Of a DNA stretch of 40,233 bases, positions 1-40,233 are shown piece by piece. The notes under the pieces were generated by a model that saw nothing but the letters and a program-made list of their open reading frames with translations, was not told where the DNA came from and did not search any database. The DNA is from Escherichia phage vB_EcoP-101118UKE1. Within the stretch, counting starts at the first letter, position 1, and each line of letters begins with the position of its first letter. The stretch lies in sequence record MZ234021.1, one strand, 5' to 3'. Made by a program: the position numbers and the translations under genes.

Positions 1-3000
1 ATGCAGGAACGAGAGGACCGCTCTACGTGGTTCGGTTTCGGTGCGGCTACAGAAGCTGAAGTGAAGAACTCTATGGTCGGCGTGGCTATCAGAGCTGGTC
101 AGACTGAGGACTCACTGGATGTCATTGGCGATGTGTTCAACCCAACCCGATGGAATAACCATAAGTGGTCTCGTGAGGAGCTGGACCAGATTCGTAACTC
201 TGGGGTTCTGCCTCAGTATTACGGAGTCATCACTGGTGGTTCCCCTCAGAACCTGACTGAGCTGATTAACTTGGCGCTTGAGAACCAGAAGTTGGACCAA
301 GAGAAGGCCAAGGCCGGGACTGGTGCTCAACTGGCGGCTGGTGTGATTGGTGCTGGCGTGGACCCTCTGACCTACGTTCCTATTGCTGGGCAGGTAGGTA
401 AAGGTGGGAAGCTAGCCAACAAGATGTTCACTGTGGCTGCTCAGTCTGGTGCTCTGGCTGGGGCATCCGAGATTGCTCGAACCTCAGTTGCTGGTGGGGA
501 CGCTCATGTGGCTGAGGCAATTATGGGCGGTGCTCTCTTCGGTGGGGGAATGACAGCTATCGGGGACGCTATCGGCAAGGCCTTAGGCAAGTCAACCAAC
601 GAGTTCGCCGGACCAGCCACACGTCTGGAAGCCCGTGAGACTGCACGTAATGTTGATGGTCAGGACCTGTCGCGTATGCCAATCCGTGAAGGAGAGGAGA
701 CCTTTAGTCATCAAGGCGTTAAGTTCGCTGACGTTCCGAATGAGCCGGGAAGTGTACGATTAGAAGACGGTTCAATCCTGATTGGTGAGAACCCTCTGAA
801 CCCTAAGACACGTCAAGTCTTTGACGAAGTGATTGAGCCTGAACGTGCCGCTGCTGGTGTGAACCTTGGTGGGCTGACTGAGATTGGCCTGAAGCTGCTT
901 CGGTCCGAGAACCCTGAGATTCGTGGAGTAGCTGCTGACTTAGTACGTTCACCGACTGGTATGCAGTCTGGGGCCTCAGGTAAAATAGGGACAACTGCGT
1001 CAGACGTATTCGAGAGACTTCGTGCTGTGGACCATCGGTTCTACAATGACATCGACGATGCGGTTACTGAGGCACTAAAGGACCCGTACTTCCAGACAGC
1101 ATTCTGGCGAGACTCTGGCGCATTCCGTCAAGACATCTATCAGCGCGTGTCTATGGCTATCGAAGATGGTAGCGGAAACCTGAAGGCTGAATTGACTCCG
1201 GGAGAACTGAAAGTCTATGACCTGCTGAAGAACCAGTTTGACGCCAAGCGTGAGATGATGGAGAACCCGGCGATGTTTGGTCGCCCAGACGCTCAGTCTA
1301 TCTTTCCGGGTAGCCGCTTCAAGGGAACATACGTCCCGCATGTGTATAGCAACCAGATGAAGGAGCTGTACATCAAGGAGCTTGGGAGTCCAGAGGCACT
1401 ACAGGAGGCCATCAAGAAGTCATGGTTGACCAGCTATGCGTCTCGACCTGAAGTCAAGAAACGCGTGGACGAGGCACTTTTAGAGGCTGACCCTACGTTG
1501 ACTCCAGAAGGACTTGCGGCTGCGGTCGATAAGTACGCCAACGATAAGGCTTATGGTATCTCTCACACCGAGCAGTTCGAGCGTTCATCCGTAATGGAGG
1601 AGAACATCAACGGGCTGGTTGGTCTGGAGAACAACAGCTTCCTTGAGGCTCGTAACCTGTTCGATAGCGATATGTCAATCGTTCTTCCTAACGGTCAGAC
1701 CTTCAGTGTCAACAACCTGCGTGAGTGGGACATGGACAAGATTGTCCCGGCCTACAACCGTCGAGTTAATGGTGATATTGCTATCATGGCTGGTACAGGC
1801 AAGACCACGAAGGAAATGAAGGACTTAGTTGAGACCATGATGAACAAGGCTGGCGATGACGGAAAGTTGAAAGGTGAAGTATCTACCTTACGTGACACCC
1901 TGAAGATTCTCACTGGTCGTGCTCGACGTGATGGTGCTGATGATGCGGCCTTCGCTACCGTGATGCGCACGATGACAGACCTATCGTTCTTCGCTAAGAA
2001 TGCCTACATGGGTGTTCAGAACTTAACGGAGATTGGTGGTATGCTGGCTCGTGGTAACGTTCGTGCAATGCTTCATGGAGTCCCAATTTTCCGTGACCTA
2101 GCCTTCCGTAACAAGAAGGTTGGGGCCTCAGAGATTAAGGACCTGCACAATGTTATCTTCGGTAAGGAACTGGATGACTCAATCCGTCCGTCTAAACAGG
2201 ATGTCATTGACCGTCTGCGATCTTACAGTGACCTCGGTCGTGGTACAGCTACAGCTCTGGGGACTGCCAAGTATTACACTGGCGAACTTGCAGTACGCTC
2301 TCCGTTCACTAAAGTCCTCAACGGTACGACCAACTACCTGTTAGATGCTGGACGTCAAGGCTTCCTGTCTGACATCGTGGAGCATAGCCTGACTGGTAGT
2401 AAGCGTAAGTTCGATGACCGCTGGCTGAAGACCGCTGGTATATCTGACGAGCAGTGGAGTGGAATTAAGTCCCTAATCCGTGAGTCAGTGACTCGTGGGC
2501 CAGACGGGAAGTACACCATCAAGGATAAGAAGGCGTTCAGTCAGGACCCAAGGGCTATGGACCTGTGGCGTATGGGTGACACCATCGCTGACGAGACGTT
2601 ACTCCGGCCTCATAAGCTGTCAAACATGGACGCCAAGGCTTATGGGCCTCTCGCTAAGACTGTCCTTCAGTTTAAGAACTTCGTCATCAAGTCTATCAAT
2701 GGGAGAACCATGCGAACCTTCTATAACGCCACGAAGAACAACAGAGCGATTGACGCTGCACTGTCGACCGTGATGTCTATGGGTCTGGCTGGTATCTACT
2801 ACATGGCTCAGGCGCATGTCAAGGCTTATGCTATGCAGGATGGTCGAGACCGTGACTACCTTAAGCAAGCTCTGGACCCAACGATGATTGGCTATGCGGC
2901 CCTGTCCCGTAGTTCACATCTTGGTGGCCTACTTGGGGTAGCTAACATTCTGGGAGGCATCGCTGGATATGAGGACACTAAGATGCTCCGTTCGTCTATC

Positions 3001-3303
3001 CTACCTCGTTCTCCTACAGATAAGCCTGAGCGTGCCATCGCGTATGGTGCAGCTACAAGTGACCCTGTGATGAATGTTGTTGGTAACTTCTTGGAGCAGG
3101 TTCCAGCTTTCGGATATGCTGCTAACGTTGGCGCTTCGGCTTACAACTTGGCTGGCTACCTCAAGGCTGATACTCGTGTCAACGAGCGTGACTACATGAC
3201 CGGGATGTATAATACGTTCCGTGAACTGGTTCCGAACGACCCCATTACCCAGAAGCTGCTGCTTGGAACGTTTGAGGAGCAAGGCATCCACATCAAGGAC
3301 TAA
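1..3303 (+). CDS. Internal virion (ejection) protein gp16, C-terminal 1100 aa; gene is split by the window boundary and continues from 39649..40233
   Basis: Long ORF colinear with T7 gp16 from about residue 220 onward (e.g. RSTWFGFG, TGGSP, VRSPTGMQSGASGK, GTYVPHVY, MDLWRM); stop TAA 3301-3303. Confidence 0.9.
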   Translation: MQEREDRSTWFGFGAATEAEVKNSMVGVAIRAGQTEDSLDVIGDVFNPTRWNNHKWSREELDQIRNSGVLPQYYGVITGGSPQNLTELINLALENQKLDQEKAKAGTGAQLAAGVIGAGVDPLTYVPIAGQVGKGGKLANKMFTVAAQSGALAGASEIARTSVAGGDAHVAEAIMGGALFGGGMTAIGDAIGKALGKSTNEFAGPATRLEARETARNVDGQDLSRMPIREGEETFSHQGVKFADVPNEPGSVRLEDGSILIGENPLNPKTRQVFDEVIEPERAAAGVNLGGLTEIGLKLLRSENPEIRGVAADLVRSPTGMQSGASGKIGTTASDVFERLRAVDHRFYNDIDDAVTEALKDPYFQTAFWRDSGAFRQDIYQRVSMAIEDGSGNLKAELTPGELKVYDLLKNQFDAKREMMENPAMFGRPDAQSIFPGSRFKGTYVPHVYSNQMKELYIKELGSPEALQEAIKKSWLTSYASRPEVKKRVDEALLEADPTLTPEGLAAAVDKYANDKAYGISHTEQFERSSVMEENINGLVGLENNSFLEARNLFDSDMSIVLPNGQTFSVNNLREWDMDKIVPAYNRRVNGDIAIMAGTGKTTKEMKDLVETMMNKAGDDGKLKGEVSTLRDTLKILTGRARRDGADDAAFATVMRTMTDLSFFAKNAYMGVQNLTEIGGMLARGNVRAMLHGVPIFRDLAFRNKKVGASEIKDLHNVIFGKELDDSIRPSKQDVIDRLRSYSDLGRGTATALGTAKYYTGELAVRSPFTKVLNGTTNYLLDAGRQGFLSDIVEHSLTGSKRKFDDRWLKTAGISDEQWSGIKSLIRESVTRGPDGKYTIKDKKAFSQDPRAMDLWRMGDTIADETLLRPHKLSNMDAKAYGPLAKTVLQFKNFVIKSINGRTMRTFYNATKNNRAIDAALSTVMSMGLAGIYYMAQAHVKAYAMQDGRDRDYLKQALDPTMIGYAALSRSSHLGGLLGVANILGGIAGYEDTKMLRSSILPRSPTDKPERAIAYGAATSDPVMNVVGNFLEQVPAFGYAANVGASAYNLAGYLKADTRVNERDYMTGMYNTFRELVPNDPITQKLLLGTFEEQGIHIKD

Positions 3304-3321
3304 ACTATCACTATAGGAAAC
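3299..3321 (+). promoter_or_regulatory. Phage RNAP promoter (phi17-type), +1 G at 3316
   Basis: ACTAAACTATCACTATA/GGAAAC; one of eleven copies of the core ACTATCACTATAGG. Confidence 0.8.
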
Positions 3322-3367
3322 TGGAGGCGCTACCATAGGTCTCCATTTAAATCACAAAGGAGGCATA

Positions 3368-5548
3368 ATGTCCACGATTACACAATTCCCTTCAGGAAAC
3401 ACTCAGTACAGGATTGAGTTCGACTACCTAGCCAGAACGTTTGTTGTTGTTACGCTGGTGAATAGCTCTAACCCTACCCTGAACCGTGTACTGGAAGTTG
3501 GTCGAGATTACCGATTCCTTAATCCAACGATGATTGAGATGTTGGCTGACCAATCAGGTTTCGACATCGTTCGTATTCACCGTCAGACTGGAACTGACTT
3601 AGTGGTAGACTTCAGGAATGGCTCAGTGTTGACAGCTAGTGACCTGACCAATTCAGAGCTTCAGGCTATCCATATTGCAGAAGAAGGTCGAGACCAAACG
3701 GTTGACTTAGCGAAGGAATATGCCGATGCTGCTGGCAGCTCTGCTGGCAACGCTAAGGATAGCGAGGACGAAGCACGCCGAATCACTGCGAGTATCAAGG
3801 CAGCTGGTAAAATTGGCTATATTACCCGTCGCTCCTTCGAGAAAGGCTTCAACGTTACAACATGGAACGAGGTCCTGCTATGGGAAGAGGATGGTGATTA
3901 TTACCGCTGGGATGGTACGCTTCCAAAGAACGTTCCCGCTGGTTCAACTCCTGAATCATCTGGTGGTATTGGGCTGAGTGCGTGGGTTAGTGTTGGTGAT
4001 GCGTCACTTAGAGCAAACCTGTCTGATAGTGATGGCGCTAAATACATAGGAAGTGGAGAAAGGACATTACTTGAGCACAACAATGATGTTTTGCACTCAA
4101 AAGACTTTCCAACACTGCAGGCAGCTATAGATGCATCTTTGCAAAAAAATGATCTACTGGTGTCTCCTGGCAATTATACTGAAAAAGTTACTATTGGAAA
4201 CGCGCAGTTAAAAGGTGTTGGCGGGGCCACGGTACTAAAAACTCCGGCAGACTTTACAAACACTGTTCAGGTTAATTTAGCTACACCTCATTGGCAATTC
4301 CGCCATAGTGGTGGTTTTGCTATAGATGGTTCCGGGACAACCGGGGCCGTAGGTATTAGTTTTGACCCGTCAGACCAATATTCCGGACGTCATAATTTTA
4401 GTGATGTATACATCCACAACATCAACAAGGCCATTCAGAAGCCTTCCGGGAACATCGGCAATACTTGGAGAAATATTGGGATATCTACGTGTGATTGGGG
4501 GTATTACGCGATTAGTGGCTCAGAGATGCATTGCGGGGCCGATACCCTCTACAATATCCACTTCGATGGCATCTCCACCTATGCAGTCTATCTAAACGGC
4601 ACTGTCGATAATGGCGGGGGGGGCGCATGGTGGCTTAAAGACTCCATTATTGAGGCTTCCGGAGGTGGCGGGATATACTTAAAAAGTAAATCGGGCGACT
4701 GTCCTACATCTCCATGCGGGGTATCCAATATATGGATGGAAGCGATCGCAACATCACCGGCTGTTCAGGTAGACGGCGTGGCGCAAAAACCGCGAGTTCT
4801 CAAGTTGGTAGACACAGCGATATTCTTTGCTGAGTATTCTTATCTCAACAACATCGAGCTATCCAACTCCAACTTAGTAACTTATGGTTGCCGTTTTGAC
4901 AACGCTGATGGCAATCAGGATATTGTCGTGGATGCACAAAGCACCATTGTAGCCCATGACGTGTATTTAAACGGCAGTTCTGGAAAGGACGTTATTGTGG
5001 AGTCCGTCGCATCGCAATCTGCAACGATAGCTACCACAAACTTATCTCTGAGGGGCAACTTAACAAGAGGGAGAGTATTTAATACGCCGACAGGGAATAA
5101 ATTAATGGCTATCACATTTGACTCAGGTAGCTATAATTTTTCTGGCAGCGGCACCGTTAACGGTTCGACTGTATCTGACGGACTTCACGCCGCTACATGT
5201 ACCGAATTTTCATTCCCCGGAGCCGGTTTATATGAAATGGTAGCGACAAGAACAACCATTACATCCGGTAGATGGTACGTGTGGGGAGTTAACTCACGCC
5301 TACAATCTGGCTCGGCGGATATTAGTATAACGTCAGGTATTACCATGGGTAGTGTTTACACAAAGCAGGGGGAGTGGATTAGCACTTTCGGTGTAGGAAA
5401 GGCATCTACCACTGGCACTGTAGCGCTATACGTTTCCACAGGAGGAGGTTCGGGAGCTACGGTCAGATTCAGTGACTTTTTCATCGCTGAGTTTACGACG
5501 CAAGCTCAGGCTTTATCTTTCGCCAATTCAAGGATGTCGTTATCATAA
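3368..5548 (+). CDS. Tail fiber / tailspike (gp17-like N-terminal adaptor, beta-helix-like C-terminal region)
   Basis: AAAGGAGG RBS 3356-3363; N-terminal ~150 aa resemble T7 gp17 (EFDYLARTFVVVTL, DYRF, LVDFRNGSVL, IAEEGRD); remainder unrelated to T7 fiber, Gly/Asn/Ser/Thr-rich with repetitive strand-like segments. Confidence 0.85.
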   Translation: MSTITQFPSGNTQYRIEFDYLARTFVVVTLVNSSNPTLNRVLEVGRDYRFLNPTMIEMLADQSGFDIVRIHRQTGTDLVVDFRNGSVLTASDLTNSELQAIHIAEEGRDQTVDLAKEYADAAGSSAGNAKDSEDEARRITASIKAAGKIGYITRRSFEKGFNVTTWNEVLLWEEDGDYYRWDGTLPKNVPAGSTPESSGGIGLSAWVSVGDASLRANLSDSDGAKYIGSGERTLLEHNNDVLHSKDFPTLQAAIDASLQKNDLLVSPGNYTEKVTIGNAQLKGVGGATVLKTPADFTNTVQVNLATPHWQFRHSGGFAIDGSGTTGAVGISFDPSDQYSGRHNFSDVYIHNINKAIQKPSGNIGNTWRNIGISTCDWGYYAISGSEMHCGADTLYNIHFDGISTYAVYLNGTVDNGGGGAWWLKDSIIEASGGGGIYLKSKSGDCPTSPCGVSNIWMEAIATSPAVQVDGVAQKPRVLKLVDTAIFFAEYSYLNNIELSNSNLVTYGCRFDNADGNQDIVVDAQSTIVAHDVYLNGSSGKDVIVESVASQSATIATTNLSLRGNLTRGRVFNTPTGNKLMAITFDSGSYNFSGSGTVNGSTVSDGLHAATCTEFSFPGAGLYEMVATRTTITSGRWYVWGVNSRLQSGSADISITSGITMGSVYTKQGEWISTFGVGKASTTGTVALYVSTGGGSGATVRFSDFFIAEFTTQAQALSFANSRMSLS

Positions 5549-5692
5549 AAACAACCTCAGCCGAAGCGGGTTATTTATCATCAGAACGGTATTGAATCAT
5601 CGAAGGTTGTGGAGGTAGAGGCTAACTACACGTTGACCAACGTATGATAACAACTTTGGGTCACGGACGACCCGCTTTAAACTGGAGGTTTT

Positions 5693-5887
5693 ATGATTGA
5701 GTTAGACTTCAAGAATGAGGTCCTTAAAGCCTCTCCTATCGTCGGGACCGCTGCGGCTGATGGTGCCAGTCGGTTCTTCTTCGGACTTACACTGAACGAA
5801 TGGTTCTACGTTGCAGCTATCGCGTACACCGTTGTCCAGATTGGTGTGCTAGTCTACAAAACGATTAAAGGAGGTGGTAAAACATGA
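5693..5887 (+). CDS. Holin (T7 gp17.5-like)
   Basis: 64 aa, GGAGG RBS; FFGLTLNEWFYVAAIAYTVVQIG transmembrane segment nearly identical to T7 gp17.5. Confidence 0.85.
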   Translation: MIELDFKNEVLKASPIVGTAAADGASRFFFGLTLNEWFYVAAIAYTVVQIGVLVYKTIKGGGKT

Positions 5888-6147
5888 CGCAGATGGACTT
5901 AGAGAAGTTCCTCTTGATGCTTGATACTGAACGTGCTCGACTCATGCTGCAAGACTTGCGGGATGACACTAAGCGTTCACCTCAGCTCTACAACGCCATT
6001 GAGAAGCTGCTTGCTCGTCACAACTTTGTGTTAAGCAAGGTGTCTGTGGACGAGAAGGCGCTGGCTGATATGGAGGCCCTGAACGCAGAGTACGATAAGG
6101 TTCTTTCAGCGACTGAGGATAATGACACCGGGTATGGTGTTCAATAA
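5884..6147 (+). CDS. Terminase small subunit (gp18-like)
   Basis: 87 aa; ATGA start/stop overlap with holin; size, position and RSPQLYNAI motif as in T7 gp18. Confidence 0.8.
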   Translation: MTQMDLEKFLLMLDTERARLMLQDLRDDTKRSPQLYNAIEKLLARHNFVLSKVSVDEKALADMEALNAEYDKVLSATEDNDTGYGVQ

Positions 6148-6158
6148 GTGTTAGACTC

Positions 6159-6185
6159 AAGGTCATTACTATATGTAGTGGCCTT
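6159..6185 (+). promoter_or_regulatory. Putative RNase III processing hairpin (R18.5-like)
   Basis: AAGGTCAT 6159-6166 pairs with GTGGCCTT 6178-6185 in RNA (G-U wobble allowed), upstream of Rz gene. Confidence 0.45.
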
Positions 6186-6248
6186 TATGGTTAACACACA
6201 CTACGGGCGGCGACGCTACGTGGATTCTGAGAAATGAGGAGGGCAACT

Positions 6249-6686
6249 ATGCTCGAACTTTTACGTAAAGCAATCCCGTGGCTGGTTGCAGGACTCCTGT
6301 TCTGTTCTGGCTACTGGGTGGCAGACAATAAGTGGGAGGCGAAGGTAAACAATGAGTACATCACGAAACTTGAGGCACGAGAGAATCAACGGGCTGCTGT
6401 CCAAGGTGAAATCAACAAAGTGTCAGCCGAGTGGCAAGACAAGATGTCCGCGCTGGAAGGCTCTACTGATAGGATTATTGCTGACCTTAACCGCGATAAC
6501 AAGCGGCTGCGCGTCCGAGTCAACACCTCAGGTCTCACCGAGTCAGATGTCAGTCGATGCTTCCCTAATGGTAGAGTCGAACTACACCCAGAAACTTCTA
6601 AAAGTCTTATCCGATTAACTCAGGAGGCAGACCTTAAGGAGAAGGCGCTTCAGGACACAATAAGGAGGCTCCAAGGTGTTAAGTGA
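6249..6686 (+). CDS. Rz-like i-spanin (gp18.5-like)
   Basis: GAGGAGGG RBS 6237-6243 before ATG 6249 (first in-frame start in the ORF track is 6234); MLELLRKAIPWLVAGLLF N-terminal TM, DLNRDNKRLRVRV as in T7 gp18.5. Confidence 0.85.
   Translation: MLELLRKAIPWLVAGLLFCSGYWVADNKWEAKVNNEYITKLEARENQRAAVQGEINKVSAEWQDKMSALEGSTDRIIADLNRDNKRLRVRVNTSGLTESDVSRCFPNGRVELHPETSKSLIRLTQEADLKEKALQDTIRRLQGVK
6352..6618 (+). CDS. Rz1-like o-spanin lipoprotein (gp18.7-like), embedded in +1 frame of Rz gene
   Basis: 88-aa ORF inside the Rz gene; PRWKALLIGLLLTLTAITSGCASES signal/lipobox pattern matching T7 gp18.7. Confidence 0.7.
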   Translation: MSTSRNLRHERINGLLSKVKSTKCQPSGKTRCPRWKALLIGLLLTLTAITSGCASESTPQVSPSQMSVDASLMVESNYTQKLLKVLSD

Positions 6687-7113
6687 TTACTACAAAGTGG
6701 ACCCGGCTAGTCCATCCGGTCTGGTCTCCGTTAGGACTGGAAAGCCTGTGGGGACATTAAGTCGGATGGGATATTGGATAGTACAGACACGAAGTCTAGG
6801 CAGTAAGCGGGCCCATCGTGTGATATGGGAACTAACCAATGGTCCTATACCGCATGGTATGCAAATAGACCACATCGACAGGAACCCTAGCAATAATACC
6901 TTAAGTAACTTACGGCTCGTTACTGCCGCTGAAAACACTTGGAATACTGGTAGCCATTATGACTCTAAGACAGGAGTGAAGTGCGTTACCCGTCACCAGA
7001 ATGGTTATAGGATTCAGGTTAAACGCGGGAATGCCTATATGCGAACAACACGTCCCACTTTAGAGGAGGCTATCGCTGTCCGGGACCTAATGCTGGAGGG
7101 ACTATATGTCTAA
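6676..7113 (+). CDS. HNH homing endonuclease
   Basis: GTG start with AAGGAGG RBS 6662-6668; motif [20 protein letters not shown] (HNH) followed by AP2-like C-terminal region; overlaps Rz end and terminase start. Confidence 0.85.
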
Positions 7114-8872: not shown

Positions 8873-8881
8873 CTGAATGAA

Positions 8882-8930
8882 TAACTATAGGTGAAAGCTG
8901 CATGAATAAGCAGTTAGTAACCTATAGTTA
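8882..8930 (+). repeat. 11-bp perfect inverted repeat immediately after terminase gene
   Basis: TAACTATAGGT 8882-8892 and ACCTATAGTTA 8920-8930, 27-nt spacer. Confidence 0.6.
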
Positions 8931-8966
8931 CTACCAGTCTAACATACTGTTTTACAAGGAGTTTGG

Positions 8967-8989
8967 ACTTAACTATCACTATAGGGAAG
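8967..8989 (+). promoter_or_regulatory. Phage RNAP promoter (phiOR-type, right genome end), +1 at 8984
   Basis: ACTTAACTATCACTATA/GGGAAG. Confidence 0.8.
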
Positions 8990-9169
8990 ACCCCCGGTTA
9001 CTTATAGTATTACTGTAGTGAATATACATATGCAGACTTTATGCAAGACCTTAGGAGGCAGACTCCGAGTTCTTACCTAAGGCTTGCACCGATGGAAGGA
9101 GGGTGATATTAATCATAATCCCTCCAATACAGATAGTCACCGACCATAGATACAGGAGGTATGTAGCAT

Positions 9170-31067: not shown

Positions 31068-31169
31068 CCAAGAGACAGACTCAAGGTTTCCCTATTACTT
31101 CAGTCCATACGGATTGGGCATACAGTAAGTAATAAACTTTATCTTTCAATTGAATAGGAGAATTATCAT

Positions 31170-32219: not shown

Positions 32220-32482
32220 CGACCTTTAAGGCCCTCTCTACAGAGGGTCCTACCTTAGAGACGTATAGTTCTACGGTGGGAACCAGCCTGAAGGTTGACT
32301 TCCCTGAGCTTTCAGATGTGACCGATTGGTCGCTGCTTGAGGTGACTACGCCTGATGGTGTTAGCTACTCCCGTAGAACCAACAGTCTCTACTTCAAGGC
32401 CACCTCTGGCGTGGAAGGTCTGGTGATTGTTGGGTATGACGGGACGCCTGTGCGTTCCTTCAACGTATCTTTCACAAACTAA
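32198..32482 (+). CDS. C-terminal extension of minor capsid protein gp10B, reached by -1 frameshift from gene 10A
   Basis: -1 frame is open from 32144 to stop at 32482; conserved GGTTTTC heptamer 32192-32198 as at the T7 10A/10B shift site. Confidence 0.55.
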   Translation, partial: HSGVSGLTTFKALSTEGPTLETYSSTVGTSLKVDFPELSDVTDWSLLEVTTPDGVSYSRRTNSLYFKATSGVEGLVIVGYDGTPVRSFNVSFTN

Positions 32483-32488
32483 TTGAAA

Positions 32489-32526
32489 CCCCTTGGGTGC
32501 CTTCGGGTGCTTGAGGGGTTTTTTTT
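32489..32526 (+). terminator. Tphi-like late terminator after capsid gene
   Basis: CCCCTTGGGTGC-CTTCGG-GTGCTTGAGGGG stem-loop followed by TTTTTTTT, closely resembling T7 Tphi. Confidence 0.9.
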
Positions 32527-32540
32527 CTTAAGGAGGGACT

Positions 32541-32630
32541 ATGGTCCTTATTTACACAGGGTTAGCACTATTCGTCTTATTCTGGGCGTACCTGCTGTCC
32601 AGCTCACCGTCTAGCGCCTATGACCGTTAA
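32541..32630 (+). CDS. Possible small hydrophobic peptide (29 aa)
   Basis: AGGAGGG 32531-32537 just after Tphi; MVLIYTGLALFVLFWAYLL; may be non-coding. Confidence 0.25.
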   Translation: MVLIYTGLALFVLFWAYLLSSSPSSAYDR

Positions 32631-32641
32631 GGAGTAAACCT

Positions 32642-33208
32642 ATGGCTCAATACATTCCACTGAATGCTAACGATGACTTAGATGCCATCAACGATATGTT
32701 AGCAGCTATCGGTGAACCAGCAGTCCTACAGCTTGACGAAGGTAACGCTGACGTCTCGAACGCTCAACGTATCCTGCATCGTGTCAATCGTCAGGTCCAA
32801 GCTAAAGGCTGGAACTTTAACATCAACGAAGCTGCTGTCCTGACACCTGATGTCCAAGACAATAGGATTCGATTCCTGCCGTCTTACCTTCGGGTCATGA
32901 CTGCTGGTGCTACCAGTTACTACAGCAACATGGGGGGCTATCTCTATGACCTGTCCACTCAGTCCACGACCTTCACTGGACCAATTACAGTCGAACTGGT
33001 GGAGATGAAACCGTTCGCTGAGATGCCTGTAGTATTCCGTGACTACATCGTTACCAAGGCCAGCCGTGAGTTCAACGCTAAGTTCTTCGGTAGCCCAGAG
33101 TCTGAACTGTACCTTCGTGAGCAGGAAGCAGAACTCTATCAGCAGGTCATGGAATACGAGATGGATACTGGTCGCTACAACATGATGTCAGACATCGGGA
33201 GGGACTAA
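32642..33208 (+). CDS. Tail tubular protein A (gp11)
   Basis: AAGGAG RBS; INDMLAAIGEP, GWNFNINEA, YEMD motifs as in T7 gp11. Confidence 0.92.
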   Translation: MAQYIPLNANDDLDAINDMLAAIGEPAVLQLDEGNADVSNAQRILHRVNRQVQAKGWNFNINEAAVLTPDVQDNRIRFLPSYLRVMTAGATSYYSNMGGYLYDLSTQSTTFTGPITVELVEMKPFAEMPVVFRDYIVTKASREFNAKFFGSPESELYLREQEAELYQQVMEYEMDTGRYNMMSDIGRD

Positions 33209-33435
33209 TGGCTAGTCACAACCTGAAGATTCACCGCCAGCACTTTGGTCTGGTACAACTAGGTCTAAAGACAGCAGAGCTGAGACTTAACGACCGGGAC
33301 TTTAAGGTTGGCGACTGGCTTATCCTGAATGAGTGGGACAACGGGTATACTGGACAACAGGTAGCGCGTAAGGTTGTCCACATTGCTGACGTTGGTGAGA
33401 TCGCTGAGGGATATGTCCTAATGAGTATGATTTAA
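33208..33435 (+). CDS. Small ASCH/PUA-like protein (DUF3850-like?), inserted between gp11 and gp12
   Basis: GGGAGGG RBS, TAATG overlap with gp11 stop; LKIHRQHF...KTAELRLNDRDFKVGDWLIL pattern. Confidence 0.55.
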   Translation: MASHNLKIHRQHFGLVQLGLKTAELRLNDRDFKVGDWLILNEWDNGYTGQQVARKVVHIADVGEIAEGYVLMSMI

Positions 33436-33444
33436 GGAGAGCCT

Positions 33445-35802
33445 ATGCCATTAATTACGCAAAGCATAAAAAATCTTAAAGGTGGTATTAGCCAACAGCC
33501 TGACATCCTGAGGTTCTCAGACCAAGGCGAGGCTCAAGTTAACTGCTGGTCATCCGAGAGTGATGGCCTCCAGAAGCGTCCACCTACAGTCTTCAAGCGA
33601 CGTCTTAACATCGACGTTGGGAGCAACCCTAAGTTCCACCTGATTAACCGTGATGAGCAGGAGCAGTATTACATCGTGTTCAACGGGTCCAACATTCAGG
33701 TAGTCGACTTGAGCGGTAATCAGTACTCAGTTTCAGGTGCGGTAGACTACGTTAAGTCGTCCAACCCGCGAGATGACATCCGTGTCGTTACAGTTGCAGA
33801 CTATACGTTCGTCGTTAACCGTAAGGTTGTCGTTAAAGGTGGAAGCGATAAGTCACACTCTGGTTATAATCGTAAAGCACGCGCTTTAATTAACCTGCGT
33901 GGTGGACAGTATGGTCGCACCCTTAAGGTAGGAATCAACGGAGGCGTTAAGGTTTCGCATAAGTTGCCAGCAGGTAATGATGCCGAGAATGACCCTCCTA
34001 AGGTTGATGCTCAGGCTATCGGTGCAGCTCTGAGAGACCTTCTTGTTGCTGCTTACCCTACCTTCACGTTCGACCTTGGGTCTGGATTCCTGTTAATCAC
34101 TGCCCCTTCAGGGACTGACATTAACTCAGTGGAGACGGAGGATGGCTACGCTAACCAGCTAATCAGCCCAGTACTCGACACGGTGCAAACAATCTCTAAG
34201 CTGCCTCTTGCAGCTCCAAATGGGTACATCATTAAGATTCAAGGTGAGACCAACAGTAGCGCCGATGAGTATTACGTGATGTATGACTCCAACACTAAGA
34301 CGTGGAAGGAGACAGTAGAGCCGGGAGTGGTCACTGGGTTCGATAACACCACAATGCCACATGCTCTGGTTAGACAATCTGACGGCTCCTTTGAGTTCAA
34401 GACTCTGGACTGGTCTAAGCGGGGTGCTGGTAATGATGACACAAACCCTATGCCTAGCTTCGTGGATGCTACGATTAACGATGTGTTCTTCTACAGGAAC
34501 AGGCTAGGGTTCTTGTCAGGAGAGAACGTAATCATGAGCCGTTCAGCCAGCTACTTTGCGTTCTTCCCTAAGAGTGTGGCGACATTGAGTGATGATGACC
34601 CTATTGACGTAGCTGTAAGTCACCCTAGAATCTCAATACTTAAGTATGCCGTTCCGTTTAGCGAGCAGCTACTACTTTGGTCAGATGAGGTGCAGTTCGT
34701 GATGACAAGCTCGGGGGTCCTTACCTCGAAGTCTATCCAGCTTGATGTAGGCTCAGAGTTTGCCTTAGAAGATAACGCCAGACCGTTCGCTGTAGGACGC
34801 TCAGTCTTCTTCTCAGCGCCTCGTGGGTCATTCACCAGTATTAAGCGATACTTCGCTGTAGCAGATGTGTCTGACGTGAAGGATGCCGATGATACCACTG
34901 GTCACGTACTGTCCTATATCCCTAACGGGGTGTTTGACATTCAAGGTACAGGGACTGAGAACTACATCTGCGTCAACTCCACAGGTGCATGCAACCGAAT
35001 CTACATCTACAAGTTCTTGTTTAAGGACGGCGTACAACTTCAAGCCTCTTGGTCGCACTGGGAGTTCCCTAAAGCTGATAAGATTCTGGCGTCTGCGTCG
35101 ATTGGCTCTACCATGTTCATTGTTCGTCAGCACCAAGGGGGTGTGGACATTGAGCACCTTAAGTTCATCAAGGAGGCAACCGACTTTCCATTAGAGCCGT
35201 ATAGACTCCACGTTGACTCTAAGGTGTCTATGGTAATACCAATTGGCTCATACAACGCTGACACCTATAAGACTACGGTTGACATTGGTTCTGCTTATGG
35301 TGGAAACGCTCCGTCTCCCGGTAGGTACTATCTGATTGACAGTCAGGGTGCCTACGTGGACCTTGGTGAATTGACCGACATCTCAACTGTGGCTGTACTC
35401 AATGGTGATTGGTCAGGACGTACAGTGTTCATCGGACGGTCTTATCTGATGTCCTACAAGTTCTCACGGTTCCTGATTAAGATTGAAGACGAGAGTGGCA
35501 CTCAGTCTGAAGACACTGGTCGTCTACAGCTTCGTCGTGCTTGGGTAAACTACAAGGACACTGGCGCTCTTAGACTCATTGTCAGAAACGGTGAGCGGGA
35601 GTTCGTGAACACCTTTAATGGGTACACCCTTGGTCAGCAAACCATAGGGACTACCAACATTGGGGATGGTCAGTATCGATTCGCTATGAATGGCAACGCA
35701 TTAACCACGAGTCTAACCTTAGAGTCCGACTATCCTACCCCGGTGTCCATCGTTGGGTGTGGCTGGGAGGCGTCATACGCTAAGAAAGCTCGTTCCGTCT
35801 AA
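33445..35802 (+). CDS. Tail tubular protein B (gp12)
   Basis: 785 aa; SIKNLKGGISQQPDILR, GFLSGENVIMSR, DDDPIDVAVS, LRRAWVNY, IVGCGWEA match T7 gp12. Confidence 0.95.
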   Translation: MPLITQSIKNLKGGISQQPDILRFSDQGEAQVNCWSSESDGLQKRPPTVFKRRLNIDVGSNPKFHLINRDEQEQYYIVFNGSNIQVVDLSGNQYSVSGAVDYVKSSNPRDDIRVVTVADYTFVVNRKVVVKGGSDKSHSGYNRKARALINLRGGQYGRTLKVGINGGVKVSHKLPAGNDAENDPPKVDAQAIGAALRDLLVAAYPTFTFDLGSGFLLITAPSGTDINSVETEDGYANQLISPVLDTVQTISKLPLAAPNGYIIKIQGETNSSADEYYVMYDSNTKTWKETVEPGVVTGFDNTTMPHALVRQSDGSFEFKTLDWSKRGAGNDDTNPMPSFVDATINDVFFYRNRLGFLSGENVIMSRSASYFAFFPKSVATLSDDDPIDVAVSHPRISILKYAVPFSEQLLLWSDEVQFVMTSSGVLTSKSIQLDVGSEFALEDNARPFAVGRSVFFSAPRGSFTSIKRYFAVADVSDVKDADDTTGHVLSYIPNGVFDIQGTGTENYICVNSTGACNRIYIYKFLFKDGVQLQASWSHWEFPKADKILASASIGSTMFIVRQHQGGVDIEHLKFIKEATDFPLEPYRLHVDSKVSMVIPIGSYNADTYKTTVDIGSAYGGNAPSPGRYYLIDSQGAYVDLGELTDISTVAVLNGDWSGRTVFIGRSYLMSYKFSRFLIKIEDESGTQSEDTGRLQLRRAWVNYKDTGALRLIVRNGEREFVNTFNGYTLGQQTIGTTNIGDGQYRFAMNGNALTTSLTLESDYPTPVSIVGCGWEASYAKKARSV

Positions 35803-35809
35803 CTTATTG

Positions 35810-35859
35810 AAGGGCCTATAGATTTACCTTAACTATCACTATAGGGACTATAGGCCCTT
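35810..35859 (+). repeat. 12-bp perfect inverted repeat bracketing the phi13-type promoter
   Basis: AAGGGCCTATAG 35810-35821 and CTATAGGCCCTT 35848-35859. Confidence 0.6.
35827..35849 (+). promoter_or_regulatory. Phage RNAP promoter (phi13-type), +1 at 35844
   Basis: CCTTAACTATCACTATA/GGGACT, flanked by a 12-bp inverted repeat. Confidence 0.85.
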
Positions 35860-35878
35860 AAGGTTATAAGGAGACTTT

Positions 35879-36349
35879 ATGTATATTCGCAAGGCTACGG
35901 AACAGGATGTCCACTACTTTCTGTGGCATCTTTCAGCAGATGATGTTAATGAGTGCAAAGCAAACTATGGGTCAACCGTTGGTCTCTCTGAAAGACTGCT
36001 TAAGCATCTATCTCCGTCATCTGTGGTTTTAACGAATGGTGTAGGCGAAGTGTTTGCCTATGGTGGAAACCAAGGGGATAACGTATGGTTCTTGACTTCC
36101 GGTCTTGTCCATAAGCTGAGACCTAAAGAGAAGCGGGAGTTCATAAAGCGTATCTCTGAGTACAGGGACTTAATGTTAGACCAATACGGGACCATCTGGA
36201 ACTACGTGTGGTCAGGCAATAAGTCTCACATTAAATTCTTGAAGTTGCTTGGGGCTAAATTCCATGATGATTGGACTGTCAGCCCGGTAACTGGTGAGCG
36301 TTTTCAATTATTCACTATCTCTAAGGAGGACGTATGTGTGAACCCGTAA
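35879..36349 (+). CDS. Internal virion protein gp13-like
   Basis: AAGGAG RBS; position downstream of phi13-type promoter. Confidence 0.7.
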   Translation: MYIRKATEQDVHYFLWHLSADDVNECKANYGSTVGLSERLLKHLSPSSVVLTNGVGEVFAYGGNQGDNVWFLTSGLVHKLRPKEKREFIKRISEYRDLMLDQYGTIWNYVWSGNKSHIKFLKLLGAKFHDDWTVSPVTGERFQLFTISKEDVCVNP

Positions 36350-36921
36350 GTATCGGCATGGGTATCATGGCTGTAGCCGGGGCCACTATGTCCGCATCCC
36401 AGCAGGCCAAGGCCGAAGGTGCAGCAATTGACGCTCAGAACCGACAGGCTCAGGAAATGGTTAAGCAGATGAACTACTCTGACGCCAACCTGAGGATGCA
36501 GGAGCGAGACCTGAAGGAGCAGCAGATGGCTGAACTGACAGAGACCACGCTCAACGGTATCCGAAATCAGGGTATGGTACGAGCTGCGGTGGCTGAGTCC
36601 GGTCTGGAAGGTAACTCTATGGACAGGATTGAACGTCAGGTCGAAGGGGATACAGTCAAGGAGCGAGCAGGGATTACAGAAAGTTACAACCGCGACTATG
36701 CGGCTATCTTCGGGAACCGTATCGCCAACATTGAGAACACCAAGTCTGCTATCCGTGGTCATGGTAAAATTATCAAGACCAGCCCACTGGCTCATGCACT
36801 TAATGTTGCAAGCGCCGGGATGCAGGGGTACGCTGCTGGTAAGTCAATCTCTGGGGCATCAAGCTCTGGTGGTGCTGCACCGATTAGTGCTGCTAAAGGC
36901 ACACCTACAGGTCATAGCTAA
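36334..36921 (+). CDS. Internal virion protein B (gp14)
   Basis: 195 aa; MC.. start, NGIRNQGMVRAAVAESGLEGNSMDRIER resembles T7 gp14. Confidence 0.85.
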   Translation: MCEPVSIGMGIMAVAGATMSASQQAKAEGAAIDAQNRQAQEMVKQMNYSDANLRMQERDLKEQQMAELTETTLNGIRNQGMVRAAVAESGLEGNSMDRIERQVEGDTVKERAGITESYNRDYAAIFGNRIANIENTKSAIRGHGKIIKTSPLAHALNVASAGMQGYAAGKSISGASSSGGAAPISAAKGTPTGHS

Positions 36922-36932
36922 GAGGAGGACTA

Positions 36933-39215
36933 ATGGCTAGTAATATTGAATCAGCTCTGGCTAATCGGACTATGGGTCGTGGCAGGGCTCCGGGTAAAAC
37001 TATCGCCGTCAACTATCAAGCAGCCAGCGTTCAGGCTCCAACTGGTGACTCAGGTCTGGCTCGGGCGCTAACCAACTTCGTTGAGTCTGGTACTGGATTA
37101 TACAAGCAGTTCAAAGACGAGGAGAAGACACGGGCCGACGAGCGGTCTAACGAGATTATCCGTAAGCTTACACCTCAGCAAAGACGTGAGGCTATCCAGA
37201 ACGGTACATTGCTGTATCAGGATGACCCTTACGCTATGGAAGCACTTCGAGTCAAGACGGGCCGTAACGCTGCCTTTGCGGTTGATGACGAGATTAACGT
37301 TAAGATTCAGAACGGTGAGTTCCGTACACGTCAGGACATGGAAGAGTATCGCCACCAGAGACTTCAGGACGCCGCTAAGTCCTATGCTGAAGAGGCGGGT
37401 ATTAACCCTACCGACGAGTTCTTCCAGCGCGGGTTCAACGATAACATCACAGACCGAAACATCGCTATCTATGGGTCTTTCAATAAGTATTTCAGCAAGC
37501 AGTCTGAAGAGACAGCAATGTTGAACACTCGTATTGAGATGAACTCGTTCCTTAACGATGGGGACCTGATGCGTTCGCCTGATTCTGGAAAGACCTTCAT
37601 GGCCTACCTTCGGGATGGACTGACGACTGCTGCTATCCCTTCGGACCAGCGAGCACGAGAGGTAATCACCCAGACGGTCCGTGACGCAATCCAGAAGTCA
37701 GGAGGCTCAAACTTCCTACAGCAAGTCCGTGGTGAGCGTATCAACCTTAACGGTGTGGATGCTACAGTCGAAGAGATTGTAGGACCAGATGTCTTCAACG
37801 CTGCTATTGTAGAGGCCCAAGGTACTGAGTACAAGCTGGTGGCTAAGTATCAGGAAGACTTGTCGTTAGGCGTTCAGTCTGCGATTCTTCAGGATGACCC
37901 AACCATCGGTCTGGCCCAGATTCAGAAACTCAAGGAGCAGAACAACCTGCTTCAACCGGGTGAAGAACTCACGCCTCAGCGTCAGATGCTTATTAATGCC
38001 GAAGCCAGCTTACTGGAAGCGGTCAAGCGTAAGTCTGCTGAACAAGCGAAGGAGAACACTAAGTTAATCCAGACCCAGAACAAGCAACTGGTCATCGACC
38101 AAGTGTATCAGCGACGTCTGGCTGGTGACAACGTATCCACCAACTATGAGGACCTTCCGGTCTCTGACGCTACAGGGGAGTTCAAGCGTTCAGACATGAA
38201 CAACTATGCGTCTTCCAAGCTACAGCAGATTGACCAGATGGACATCCCTGAGGCTGCTAAGGACGCTCAGAAGGTGGCATTGTTAAGAGCTGACACTAAT
38301 AACGGTCCGTTCCGTAATGCCTTCCAGACGCTGACTCAGGACGCTGCTGGTGAGTGGCAAGCTGCGGTCATCCGTGGACAGTACGACCCAGATAAGATGC
38401 AACGCTTCGAGTCTCTTCGTCGTGCCTACACTCAGGACCCTTCAAGTTTCGCTGCTCTGTATCCTGACCAAGCTCAGTTGTTCTCTACATTCGACCAGAT
38501 GGACAAAATGGGTCTAGACCCTCAGACGATGATTGAAGCTGATAAGCAAGCTGCAAGTCAAAGCCGTGAGATGCGCATGGAGTCAGACAAGGCGTGGCAG
38601 GAGTTGAAGAACGACTCCAAGAACACCCAGTTGTCTCGCCTCCCAACGTCTCTGGACTCAAGTGCTCGTAAGGTCTGGGACTCATGGTACTATCGTACAG
38701 GTAACGCTGACGCTGCAACGCAGCAGACTCAACGCTGGCTGAATGAGAACACCGTAACGTTCCAGTCTGAAGGTTCTGACGGTAAGTCCATCGGCATGGT
38801 GTCCAAACACCAGCTTATGGTCGGGGATAACCCAGAGTCGTGGCAGGTGGGTCGAGACATTATAGACACCGCTCGTCAGCAGCTCATTAAGGCCAACCCT
38901 TGGGTAGTGAACTCTCAGTTGTCCGTTGTTGAACAGAACGGCTCTATCTTCCTCCAAGACGCTACGGGGACTATTCGTATTCGATACGATAAAGAACTTG
39001 TAGGTAAACTCTACCGCGAACAACAGCAGAAGGTACAAGATGCCGCATATGCTCAGGCAGAACGTGACGCTAACAAGCGAGCGCGTATCGTCGGGACTAA
39101 AGCTGCTGGTGACAAACGTCGAGCTGACCGAGAGGCCAACATCGAGAAGCGCGGTGGGATGTACAATGACGTCTCACTGGAGGGTATCGCAAACGCACTA
39201 ATCGGTAAGGAGTAA
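36933..39215 (+). CDS. Internal virion protein C (gp15)
   Basis: 760 aa, AGAGGAGG RBS; size and position as T7 gp15. Confidence 0.9.
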   Translation: MASNIESALANRTMGRGRAPGKTIAVNYQAASVQAPTGDSGLARALTNFVESGTGLYKQFKDEEKTRADERSNEIIRKLTPQQRREAIQNGTLLYQDDPYAMEALRVKTGRNAAFAVDDEINVKIQNGEFRTRQDMEEYRHQRLQDAAKSYAEEAGINPTDEFFQRGFNDNITDRNIAIYGSFNKYFSKQSEETAMLNTRIEMNSFLNDGDLMRSPDSGKTFMAYLRDGLTTAAIPSDQRAREVITQTVRDAIQKSGGSNFLQQVRGERINLNGVDATVEEIVGPDVFNAAIVEAQGTEYKLVAKYQEDLSLGVQSAILQDDPTIGLAQIQKLKEQNNLLQPGEELTPQRQMLINAEASLLEAVKRKSAEQAKENTKLIQTQNKQLVIDQVYQRRLAGDNVSTNYEDLPVSDATGEFKRSDMNNYASSKLQQIDQMDIPEAAKDAQKVALLRADTNNGPFRNAFQTLTQDAAGEWQAAVIRGQYDPDKMQRFESLRRAYTQDPSSFAALYPDQAQLFSTFDQMDKMGLDPQTMIEADKQAASQSREMRMESDKAWQELKNDSKNTQLSRLPTSLDSSARKVWDSWYYRTGNADAATQQTQRWLNENTVTFQSEGSDGKSIGMVSKHQLMVGDNPESWQVGRDIIDTARQQLIKANPWVVNSQLSVVEQNGSIFLQDATGTIRIRYDKELVGKLYREQQQKVQDAAYAQAERDANKRARIVGTKAAGDKRRADREANIEKRGGMYNDVSLEGIANALIGKE

Positions 39216-39217
39216 AC

Positions 39218-39667
39218 ATGAAGAACGGGACAGCCAGTGAGAGACTGGCAGAACTGTCAGCAGGTGAAGAGTCTGGCTGTATCCGATTCACAGGCCACTT
39301 AGACGGAGAAGGATACGGAAGGATAATGGTCAACAGGGTCAAATACAGAGCGCATAGACTTGCTTACGAGCTTGCTAACGGTCCTATACCAGATGGGTAC
39401 GTTGTTCGCCATAAGTGCGACAACCCGTCCTGTATAAACCCAAGACACCTTGAAGTCGGTACCCAAGCTGATAACATAAAGGATAAGGTGACTAGAGGTC
39501 GCCAAGCGTTAGGATGCTTCATAGGATCGTCTAAGCTCACTGAGGAAAGTGTGCGTGATATAAGGTCCAGCAACCTAAAGGTTTCACTTTTGGCTGAACG
39601 CTATGGAGTGAGTACGGTTTCTATTAGAAATATCTTGAGGAGAAAGACATGGCGACACGTGGAGTAA
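39218..39667 (+). CDS. HNH homing endonuclease inserted between gp15 and gp16 (paralog of 22866..23267)
   Basis: TAAGGAG RBS; RHKCDNPSCINPRHLEVGTQADN motif; 3' end overlaps gp16 start. Confidence 0.85.
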   Translation: MKNGTASERLAELSAGEESGCIRFTGHLDGEGYGRIMVNRVKYRAHRLAYELANGPIPDGYVVRHKCDNPSCINPRHLEVGTQADNIKDKVTRGRQALGCFIGSSKLTEESVRDIRSSNLKVSLLAERYGVSTVSIRNILRRKTWRHVE

Positions 39668-40233
39668 GGAACTCAAACCCCGGGAACCTCCGTAAGTCCA
39701 AAGACCAATGGGAAGGTGCTATAGGGGATGATGGTGAATTCGTTATCTTCGACAGCCCTGAATCCGGGGTCCGAGCCTTAGCAAAAAACCTTCAAAGCTA
39801 CGGGCGCCAAGGCTATGACTCAATCGAGAAGATTATCAACCGTTGGGCACCTCCGAACGAGAACGACACTCAGTCCTACATCGACTCGGTTGTATCTGCG
39901 ACTGGTATTCCAGCCACACAGAGTCTCGACCTATCGGACCCTGACACCCTGTCTTCTCTGGCTCAAGCTATCAGCTTCCATGAGACAGGATCCCGGTACG
40001 ACCCAGAAGTCTATCAGAAGGGAGTCGCACGAGCACTCAATGGCATTAGCCCAAAGACTCCACCAGTAAGCGCTAACGTATTTGACGCACTCACGGAAGG
40101 ACTCAAGGCTAAACCTAAAGTAGCTCTGGGTGAGAACCTTCCGACCGCTGCTGGTATGAACATTGAGGGTCAAGCACCTGAAGCTCCCAACGAATCGTTC
40201 GGTGAGATGTTCTATAAGGCTACTGGCGAGACC
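39649..40233 (+). CDS. Internal virion (ejection) protein gp16, N-terminal 195 aa (partial; continues in frame at window position 1)
   Basis: GAGGAG RBS, ATG 39649, open to window end; last residues FYKATGET align with T7 gp16 FWETHGET just before the segment at 1..3303. Confidence 0.85.
   Translation, partial: MATRGVRNSNPGNLRKSKDQWEGAIGDDGEFVIFDSPESGVRALAKNLQSYGRQGYDSIEKIINRWAPPNENDTQSYIDSVVSATGIPATQSLDLSDPDTLSSLAQAISFHETGSRYDPEVYQKGVARALNGISPKTPPVSANVFDALTEGLKAKPKVALGENLPTAAGMNIEGQAPEAPNESFGEMFYKATGET

What the first reader, a model, noticed from the sequence alone, without database searches (positions are those of the whole stretch)
1..40233. Window is a complete, circularly permuted T7-like genome; gene 16 is continuous across the window boundary
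The ORF open to the window end (39649..40233, 195 codons, ending FYKATGET) and the ORF starting at position 1 (MQEREDRSTWFGFG...) are adjacent segments of one gp16-like protein in the same frame (T7 has ...FWETHGETLDEYNSRSTFFGFK...). The record is therefore a circular or concatemer-derived representation of a roughly 40.2-kb linear genome, with the true termini at about 9.57-9.76 kb. Any annotation treating the window ends as genome ends would truncate gene 16 and misplace the terminal repeat.
Basis: partly seen in the sequence, partly recalled or inferred. Interest (0 to 1): 0.6.

Follow-up and report, generated by a model that had tools for sequence, protein, structure and literature searches.

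The report
Phage genome record opened inside gene 16
The window is a complete T7-like (K1F-type) coliphage genome written out from an arbitrary point inside gene 16, so the gene is split across the record ends and the true DNA ends lie inside the record; this is an ordinary record artefact, not new biology.

Summary
Window 39649..40233 (195 codons) and 1..3303 (1100 codons) join in frame into one 1295-aa protein. It aligns without gaps, end to end, with gp16 of phage K1F (97.5% identity) and from residue 125 onward with T7 gp16 (53.6%). The window is a Kayfunavirus genome and almost certainly GenBank MZ234021 (vB_EcoP-101118UKE1): the length is the same, 40,233 bp, and so are the endolysin coordinates. 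Opened at 9575, it carries the T7 genes 0.3 to 19.5 in T7 order on one strand, with 11 phage promoters. A single 179-bp copy of the terminal repeat lies at 9575..9753. It matches the repeats found at both ends of K1F and EcoDS1 and the PhageTerm-predicted repeat of phage Peacock. The virion DNA is therefore inferred to run 9575 to 40233, then 1 to 9753, about 40,412 bp; physical ends cannot be tested without reads. Nine sister records start at the same internal ATG. The two I inspected annotate a truncated 1100-aa "transglycosylase" and leave the 195 N-terminal codons unannotated. Those codons hold the only muralytic domain, which resembles the Enc34 endolysin, not T7's SLT domain. The biology is already known, and the value is curatorial.

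The parts
39649..40233 (+). Gene 16, 5' part: codons 1-195 of the 1295-aa internal virion protein D. It contains the whole muralytic domain (aa 3-123, Enc34-endolysin-like; W66, Y77, E112).
   Evidence: gap-free to K1F gp16; PDB 9vvp_L 1-195; 7q47_A E 2.5e-13; phrog_873 endolysin E 4e-52
1..3303 (+). Gene 16, 3' part: codons 196-1295 plus stop. This is the T7-gp16-like body, which in T7 is part of the DNA ejectosome. Base 1 is the internal Met196 codon.
   Evidence: phrog_342, 1054 bits; T7 gp16 structures 7eyb/7k5c/6yt5
39218..39667 (+). HNH homing endonuclease ORF (149 aa) inserted between genes 15 and 16. Its 3' end overlaps the gene 16 start by 19 nt. It is absent from K1F, LM33_P1, CLB_P1 and 22664BS1.
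   Evidence: unaligned 39216-39648; HNH_3 E 6e-17; = '7.7C homing endonuclease' of CR44b; in 16 of 183 related records
36933..39215 (+). Gene 15 (internal virion protein C), upstream neighbour of gene 16
   Evidence: 98.7% to EcoDS1 gp15; 46.5% to T7 gp15
3301..3318 (+). Phage RNA polymerase promoter (phi17 equivalent) overlapping the gene 16 stop
   Evidence: 0 mismatches; EcoDS1 phi17 annotation
3368..5548 (+). Gene 17 tail spike (726 aa): T7-type N-terminal adaptor plus LM33_P1-type receptor-binding part. Downstream neighbour of gene 16.
   Evidence: (Phage_T7_tail, Tail_spike_N)
7106..8872 (+). Gene 19, large terminase subunit of the T7 (short direct terminal repeat) type
   Evidence: 97.1% to EcoDS1 gp19; 63.7% to T7 gp19
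8969..8986 (+). Phage promoter at the position of phiOR (between gene 19 and the right copy of the terminal repeat)
   Evidence: EcoDS1 phiOR 38500-38522 has the same sequence
9170..9328 (+). Gene 19.5, last gene before the right genome end
   Evidence: 100% to EcoDS1 gp19.5
9575..9753 (.). Single (collapsed, or concatemer-junction) copy of the 179-bp direct terminal repeat. Inferred left genome end = 9575 (TCTCACAGT...). Inferred right genome end = 9753 (...GAGTCTC). The EcoDS1 'concatemeric junction' motif TCTATCTG lies at 9752-9759.
   Evidence: K1F exact 178-bp DTR maps here; EcoDS1 'terminal repeat'; Peacock PhageTerm DTR; alignment incl. T7; only one copy in the window
10665..11168 (+). 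Gene 0.3 (Ocr-type anti-restriction), first T7-numbered conserved gene after the left end
12470..15151 (+). Gene 1, single-subunit phage RNA polymerase (893 aa)
   Evidence: 98.8% to EcoDS1 gp1; 62.8% to T7 RNAP

Best explanation
The window is the deposited sequence of a K1F-like T7-family coliphage (genus Kayfunavirus), almost certainly MZ234021, vB_EcoP-101118UKE1. The virion DNA of such phages is linear with fixed ends and a short direct terminal repeat. Short-read assembly collapses the two repeat copies, or reads concatemer junctions, which also carry one copy. The result is a circular sequence that can be opened anywhere. Here it was opened at the ATG for Met196 inside gene 16, probably because that was the first CDS a closed-end gene caller could call on a contig broken in gene 16, and the whole series was then rotated to that point. 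As a result gene 16 is split between the two record ends. The real ends, by homology, are at 9575 and 9753. The packaged genome is inferred to be 9575..40233 + 1..9753, about 40,412 bp. Shown: gene continuity, gene order, a single repeat copy homologous to documented terminal repeats, and a shared start point across the series. Inferred: the physical ends in this isolate, and the reason for the chosen start.
For: The joined ORF of 1295 aa is gap-free against K1F, CLB_P1 and LM33_P1 gp16, EcoDS1 gp16 and the solved structure 9vvp_L. The DNA junction is gap-free against K1F. The closest records are Kayfunavirus at 96-98% identity. The genes from 0.3 to 19.5 are present in T7 order, with gene 16 spanning 39649 to 3300 on the doubled sequence. 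All 11 phage promoters are on the + strand, against 0.03 expected by chance. K1F and EcoDS1 carry exact 178-bp repeats at both ends, and these map once to 9575..9753 with K1F's right and left flanks on either side. EcoDS1 annotates the same sequence as 'terminal repeat' and Peacock as 'direct terminal repeat predicted by PhageTerm'. Identity of the window: its length is 40,233 bp and its endolysin lies at 20127-20585, 152 aa. The source paper used MiSeq, SPAdes and Prokka and mentions no terminus analysis. Nine sister records (MZ234009, 11, 22, 23, 24, 44-47) begin or end at the same homologous base. The two I inspected annotate CDS 1..3303.
Against: No reads or virion DNA were available, so the ends in this particular isolate are inferred from relatives 92-98% identical in the repeat. 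The record MZ234021 itself is not in the searchable collection, so its own annotation was not seen. The reason why base 1 is an in-frame ATG is a guess.
Confidence: 0.95

Rival explanations
1. The window ends are the true physical ends of the phage DNA. Two separate genes (a 195-aa muralytic protein and an 1100-aa gp16 body) then sit at opposite ends of the genome.
For: Only the form of the record: it is linear and starts with an ATG. Sister records annotate CDS 1..3303 as a gene.
Against: The 195-codon frame has no stop codon before the window end. The two parts form one gap-free 1295-aa protein in every correctly oriented relative and in a solved structure. There is no terminal repeat at the window ends. 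The homologue of the documented terminal repeat lies at 9575..9753.
Confidence: 0.01
2. The virion DNA is truly circularly permuted and terminally redundant (headful packaging), so no unique ends exist.
For: A circular assembly is what headful phages also give. No reads were available to exclude it directly.
Against: The large terminase is 63.7% identical to T7 gp19 and 97% to EcoDS1 gp19. The terminal-repeat sequence, its boundary motifs and the upstream phiOR promoter are conserved with phages that have fixed ends. A terminase phylogeny places the K1F group among short-DTR packagers (PMC5582158).
Confidence: 0.02
3. Met196 (base 1) is a genuine internal translation start. It would yield a second, shorter gp16 without the muralytic domain, as with T7 genes 4A/4B, and the record start reflects that.
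For: The ATG is in frame and conserved among K1F-type gp16. Gene callers accept it in sister records.
Against: There is no convincing Shine-Dalgarno sequence at the right spacing upstream (...TAAGGCTACTGGCGAGACC|ATG). T7 has Leu at this position. No phage promoter lies nearby. A gene caller forced to start inside a cut gene explains the call fully.
Confidence: 0.02

Closest known systems
Escherichia phage K1F (DQ111067) and EcoDS1 (EU734172), genus Kayfunavirus, records deposited with both terminal repeats
   Same: Same genes in the same order. gp16 is 1295 aa (97.5% and 96.8% identity). The 178-bp terminal repeat is about 94-95% identical to window 9575..9753. The promoter consensus, phiOR and gene 19.5 are the same.
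   Different: Those records start at the left physical end and carry the repeat twice. The window starts inside gene 16 and carries it once. The window has a different tail spike (LM33_P1 type, not the K1F endosialidase) and extra HNH genes.
Sister records of the same study (MZ234009, MZ234011, MZ234022-24, MZ234044-47; Loose et al. 2021, PMC8614997)
   Same: 94-98% identical. All are opened at the same internal ATG of gene 16. In the two inspected, MZ234009 and MZ234011, gp16 is annotated as a truncated 1100-aa 'peptidoglycan lytic exotransglycosylase' and the 5' 585 nt are unannotated.
   Different: They differ in tail spikes and in HNH content. The window's own record (MZ234021) is not in the collection searched.
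Bacteriophage T7 (V01146): gene 16, 160-bp terminal repeat and concatemer junction
   Same: Gene order is the same. The gp16 body is 53.6% identical from residue 125. The repeat boundary motifs are shared: TCTCACAGT at the left end and CTATCTGT just across the right boundary. A phiOR promoter lies upstream of the right repeat.
   Different: The repeat interior is not alignable by BLAST. T7 gp16 begins with an SLT lytic transglycosylase domain. The K1F-type gp16 begins with an unrelated domain similar to the Enc34 endolysin.

Membership tests
T7-like phages (Autographiviridae, Studiervirinae, genus Kayfunavirus) | Phage-encoded single-subunit RNA polymerase | tested here: met
   12470..15151, 893 aa; 98.8% identical to EcoDS1 gp1 and 62.8% to T7 RNAP
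T7-like phages (Autographiviridae, Studiervirinae, genus Kayfunavirus) | All genes on one strand in the conserved order 0.3 ... 19.5 | tested here: met
   tblastn of EcoDS1 and T7 proteins gives a monotonic order when the circle is opened at 9575. Collinear DNA alignment to K1F, LM33_P1 and CLB_P1.
T7-like phages (Autographiviridae, Studiervirinae, genus Kayfunavirus) | Conserved phage promoters recognised by the phage RNAP | tested here: met
   11 matches to the EcoDS1 promoter core, all on the + strand, against 0.03 expected. Function not tested.
T7-like phages (Autographiviridae, Studiervirinae, genus Kayfunavirus) | Linear virion DNA with short direct terminal repeats at fixed ends | not testable with these tools
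   Only one copy is in the window. It is 92-98% identical to repeats documented at record ends in K1F, EcoDS1, Peacock, Vec13 and GA2A. Physical ends need reads or virion DNA.
gp16 / internal virion protein D (T7 ejectosome component) | Full-length collinear homology to gp16, encoded between genes 15 and 17 | tested here: met
   Met only after joining the window ends: 1295 aa, gap-free to K1F gp16; matches PDB 9vvp_L and T7 gp16 structures 7eyb/7k5c/6yt5
gp16 / internal virion protein D (T7 ejectosome component) | N-terminal SLT-type lytic transglycosylase domain as in T7 gp16 (the basis of the name 'peptidoglycan lytic exotransglycosylase') | tested here: not met
   No Pfam SLT hit. Residues 1-124 do not align with T7 gp16. 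They match the Enc34 endolysin catalytic domain instead (7q47, E 2.5e-13), and W66/Y77/E112 align with its proposed catalytic W/Y/E. Enzyme activity not tested.
Headful-packaged, circularly permuted phage genomes | Headful-type terminase and no fixed ends | tested here: not met
   The terminase is T7 gp19-like (63.7%), and a fixed-end terminal repeat homologue is present. Physical permutation is not directly testable here.

The most novel reading that the evidence does not exclude
Met196, the codon at window base 1, might be a real internal initiation site. It would give a second gp16 isoform that lacks the muralytic domain, so the 'truncated' CDS would correspond to a natural product. Nothing in the sequence supports this: there is no good ribosome-binding site and the Met is not conserved in T7. 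It simply cannot be excluded without protein data.
Probability: 0.02. Interest if true: 0.3.

Novelty: already known. Interest (0 to 1): 0.08.

Why it matters
The matter is one of data quality, not discovery. A 'complete genome' record, and at least nine sister records, start inside an essential virion gene. In the two sister records I inspected the deposited protein is 195 residues short and lacks the very domain its name refers to. The terminal repeat is buried mid-record under spurious small ORFs, and the stated genome length omits one repeat copy. Protein surveys, pangenome clustering, synteny plots and terminus-based packaging predictions that use these records inherit the error. One possible example is a 2025 survey of UPEC-phage lysins, which lists 1295-aa 'internal virion proteins with endolysin domain' for LNA3, LNA5, SHAK7854 and SHAK9454 but not for these six Kayfunavirus phages. 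The fix is simple: rotate the record to start at 9575, append the 179-bp repeat after confirming it with reads, and annotate gene 16 as one 3888-nt CDS.

Tried and rejected
- Pfam found nothing for either half of gp16. PHROGs and PDB sequence searches were needed to identify them.
- blastn-short of the T7 ends against the window gave no hit at E 1e-5. Only a multiple alignment showed the shared boundary motifs.
- I first recalled PDB 7Q47 as the Pae87 lysin. The library shows it is the Enc34 endolysin catalytic domain, so the recollection was dropped.
- MZ234021 could not be fetched, so its own feature table was not seen.
- The original K1F genome paper is not held, so the way K1F's ends were determined could not be checked.
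- A sigma-70 and terminator scan of 8873-10664 gave counts no higher than shuffles and was not used.
- A search for long direct repeats in the whole window found only promoter-associated and candidate RNase III-type repeats. There was no second repeat copy and no sign of a misassembly.
- No tRNAs were found. The composition profile is unremarkable.
- Searches were input errors.
Full report
**Observation**

The frame opened by the ATG at 39649 runs without a stop to the last base of the window (585 nt, 195 codons...FYKATGET). Base 1 begins ATG CAG GAA (MQEREDRSTWFGFG...), and that frame ends at 3303. The window length is a multiple of three, so joining 40233 to 1 gives a 3888-nt ORF of 1295 codons with only the final stop.

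This product aligns residue 1 to 1295, with no gap, to the 1295-aa gp16 of K1F (97.5%), CLB_P1 (96.7%) and LM33_P1 (96.4%). It aligns from residue 125 to T7 gp16 (53.6%), and the T7 segment FWETHGETLDEYNSRSTFFGFK lies exactly over the junction. The 600 nt around the junction align without gaps to K1F 28999-29598. The window ends share no overlapping sequence. The same protein matches the solved chain 9vvp_L (Gp29, 1295 aa) along its full length, and it matches the T7 gp16 structures 7eyb, 7k5c and 6yt5.

**What the window is**

The closest records are Kayfunavirus phages (Autographiviridae, Studiervirinae) at 96-98% identity, led by vB_EcoP-22664BS1 (MZ234009) and vB_EcoP-101136BS1.

Table 1 of the source paper lists a Kayfunavirus of exactly 40,233 bp: vB_EcoP-101118UKE1, MZ234021 (PMC8614997). 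A later survey gives its endolysin as 20127-20585, 152 aa (PMC12031403). That is exactly the window ORF. The record itself is not in the searchable collection. The paper describes MiSeq sequencing, SPAdes assembly and Prokka annotation, and it contains no mention of terminal repeats, circularity or PhageTerm.

**Completeness and architecture**

tblastn with the EcoDS1 and T7 protein sets finds genes 0.3, 1, 1.3, 2.5, 3, 3.5, 4, 5, 6, 8, 9, 10A, 11, 12, 13, 14, 15, 16, 17, 17.5, 18, 18.5, 19 and 19.5. All are on the + strand. They follow T7 order once the circle is opened at 9575, and gene 16 spans 39649 to 3300 on a doubled sequence.

The rotated window is collinear with LM33_P1 over 38,280 of 40,233 bases. 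The gaps include HNH endonuclease ORFs at 6676..7113, 22830..23267 and 39218..39667. Eleven matches to the EcoDS1 phage promoter core occur, all on the + strand, against 0.03 expected by chance. One of them, at 8969..8986, sits in the position of phiOR.

**True ends**

K1F and EcoDS1 carry exact 178-bp repeats at both record ends. The K1F left end (1-1191) aligns to window 9575-10742, and the last 1200 bases of K1F align up to 9753. The window therefore contains right flank, one repeat copy, then left flank, which is the arrangement of a concatemer junction or of a collapsed assembly.

The 179-bp segment 9575..9753 matches, along its full length, position 1 to about 178 of many records in which it is annotated as a terminal repeat:
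- EcoDS1 annotates it as 'terminal repeat', with a 'concatemeric junction' at 177-184.
- Peacock annotates it as 'direct terminal repeat predicted by PhageTerm'.
- Vec13 and GA2A also annotate a repeat there.

A multiple alignment shows that the boundary motifs are shared even with T7: TCTCACAGT at the left end, and CTATCTGT across the right boundary. Only one copy exists in the window.

By inference the packaged DNA is 9575..40233 + 1..9753, or 40,412 bp. The physical ends of this isolate were not, and cannot be, measured with the tools at hand.

**Why the record starts where it does**

Nine other records from the same submission (MZ234009, 11, 22, 23, 24, 44-47) begin or end at the homologous base. 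MZ234009 and MZ234011 annotate CDS 1..3303 as 'peptidoglycan lytic exotransglycosylase'. Both leave the last 585 nt unannotated and call small hypothetical CDSs over the terminal repeat.

A shared start on an in-frame ATG cannot be a random contig break. The likely history is as follows:
- A contig was broken somewhere in gene 16.
- A gene caller that does not allow partial genes then started at the next in-frame ATG.
- All genomes were rotated to that first CDS so they could be compared.

This history is an inference.

**What the split removes**

Residues 1-124 of this gp16 do not align with T7's SLT domain and have no Pfam hit. They match PHROG 873 ('endolysin', E 4e-52) and the catalytic domain of the phage Enc34 endolysin (PDB 7q47, E 2.5e-13).

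The Trp, Tyr and Glu proposed as catalytic in Enc34 (W79, Y95, E131 in the deposited numbering) align with W66, Y77 and E112 of this gp16, allowing for a one-residue offset between chain index and deposited numbering.

All three residues lie in the 195 codons at the 3' end of the window. The truncated 1100-aa CDS, as annotated in the sister records, therefore carries a muralytic name but no muralytic domain, and the name (SLT-type transglycosylase) does not fit the K1F-type protein in any case.

**Alternatives**

- Window ends as real ends. This is excluded by the open frame, the gap-free gp16 and the location of the repeat.
- True headful permutation. This is very unlikely given a T7-type terminase (63.7% identical to T7 gp19), the conserved repeat and boundary motifs, and published terminase phylogeny that places the K1F group among short-DTR packagers (PMC5582158).
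- An internal start at Met196. There is no suitable ribosome-binding site, and T7 has Leu at that position.

**Verdict**

The finding is correct, and it is a sound curatorial catch. The biology behind it is textbook: a T7-type genome with direct terminal repeats, represented as an arbitrarily opened circle. Novelty: already known. Interest: low.

Noticed in passing
window 39218..39667 (+): A 149-aa HNH_3 homing endonuclease ORF is inserted between genes 15 and 16, starting 3 nt after the gene 15 stop and overlapping the gene 16 start by 19 nt. It is absent from K1F, LM33_P1, CLB_P1 and 22664BS1. It is present in 16 of 183 related records, for example as '7.7C homing endonuclease' in Citrobacter phage CR44b.
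   Followed up: yes
window 6676..7113, 22830..23267, 25314..25739 (+): Three further HNH_3 endonuclease ORFs lie between 18.5 and 19, just upstream of gene 5, and at the 3' end of gene 5. Together with the 15/16 insert they account for much of the extra length of the window over LM33_P1 (38,979 bp).
   Followed up: partly
window 39649..40017 (gp16 aa 1-123): The N-terminal muralytic domain of K1F-type gp16 is not the SLT domain of T7 gp16. It resembles the Enc34 endolysin catalytic domain (PDB 7q47), with the proposed W/Y/E residues conserved (W66, Y77, E112). Database names such as 'peptidoglycan lytic exotransglycosylase' for this protein are probably inherited from T7 and not tested.
   Followed up: partly
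window 3368..5548 (+): The tail spike has a T7-tail-fibre N-terminal adaptor (aa 10-116) followed by a Tail_spike_N domain. The DNA aligns with the LM33_P1 tail fibre gene, not with the K1F endosialidase or the EcoDS1 gp17 C-terminal part (only aa 1-257 match EcoDS1).
   Followed up: partly
window 6151-6195 and 15719-15763; 10300-10319, 10617-10636, 11345-11364: There are two sets of conserved direct repeats. One sits just after the promoter at 15701 and between genes 18 and 18.5. The other lies in the early region before genes 0.3 and 0.35-0.6. Their positions correspond to where T7 has RNase III processing sites (R1.1, R18.5, R0.3, R0.5). That comparison is from memory of T7 and was not tested by folding.
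   Followed up: no
window 9760-9870 and 9485-9521: Short imperfect repeats (ACCTACAGT / ACCTACGGT type) flank the terminal repeat on both sides. They are reminiscent of the arrays of 7-bp repeats (SRL/SRR) next to the T7 terminal repeat.
   Followed up: no
L002 (NC_031937, LM33_P1) and L005 (KC109329, CLB_P1) record ends: These reference records also lack a second repeat copy. LM33_P1 is opened 8 nt inside the left edge of the repeat (window 9583). CLB_P1 is opened near its right edge (window 9743). Neither has an exact terminal duplication. In LM33_P1 the RNA polymerase is annotated as two CDSs (2925-4892 and 4920-5606), which suggests a frameshift or a sequencing error there.
   Followed up: partly
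L001 (MZ234009) 19873..20226: The endolysin (gp3.5 amidase) of the sister phage 22664BS1 is annotated as only 117 aa, against 152 aa in the window and the other sisters. This is another probable annotation or start-site artefact in the series.
   Followed up: no
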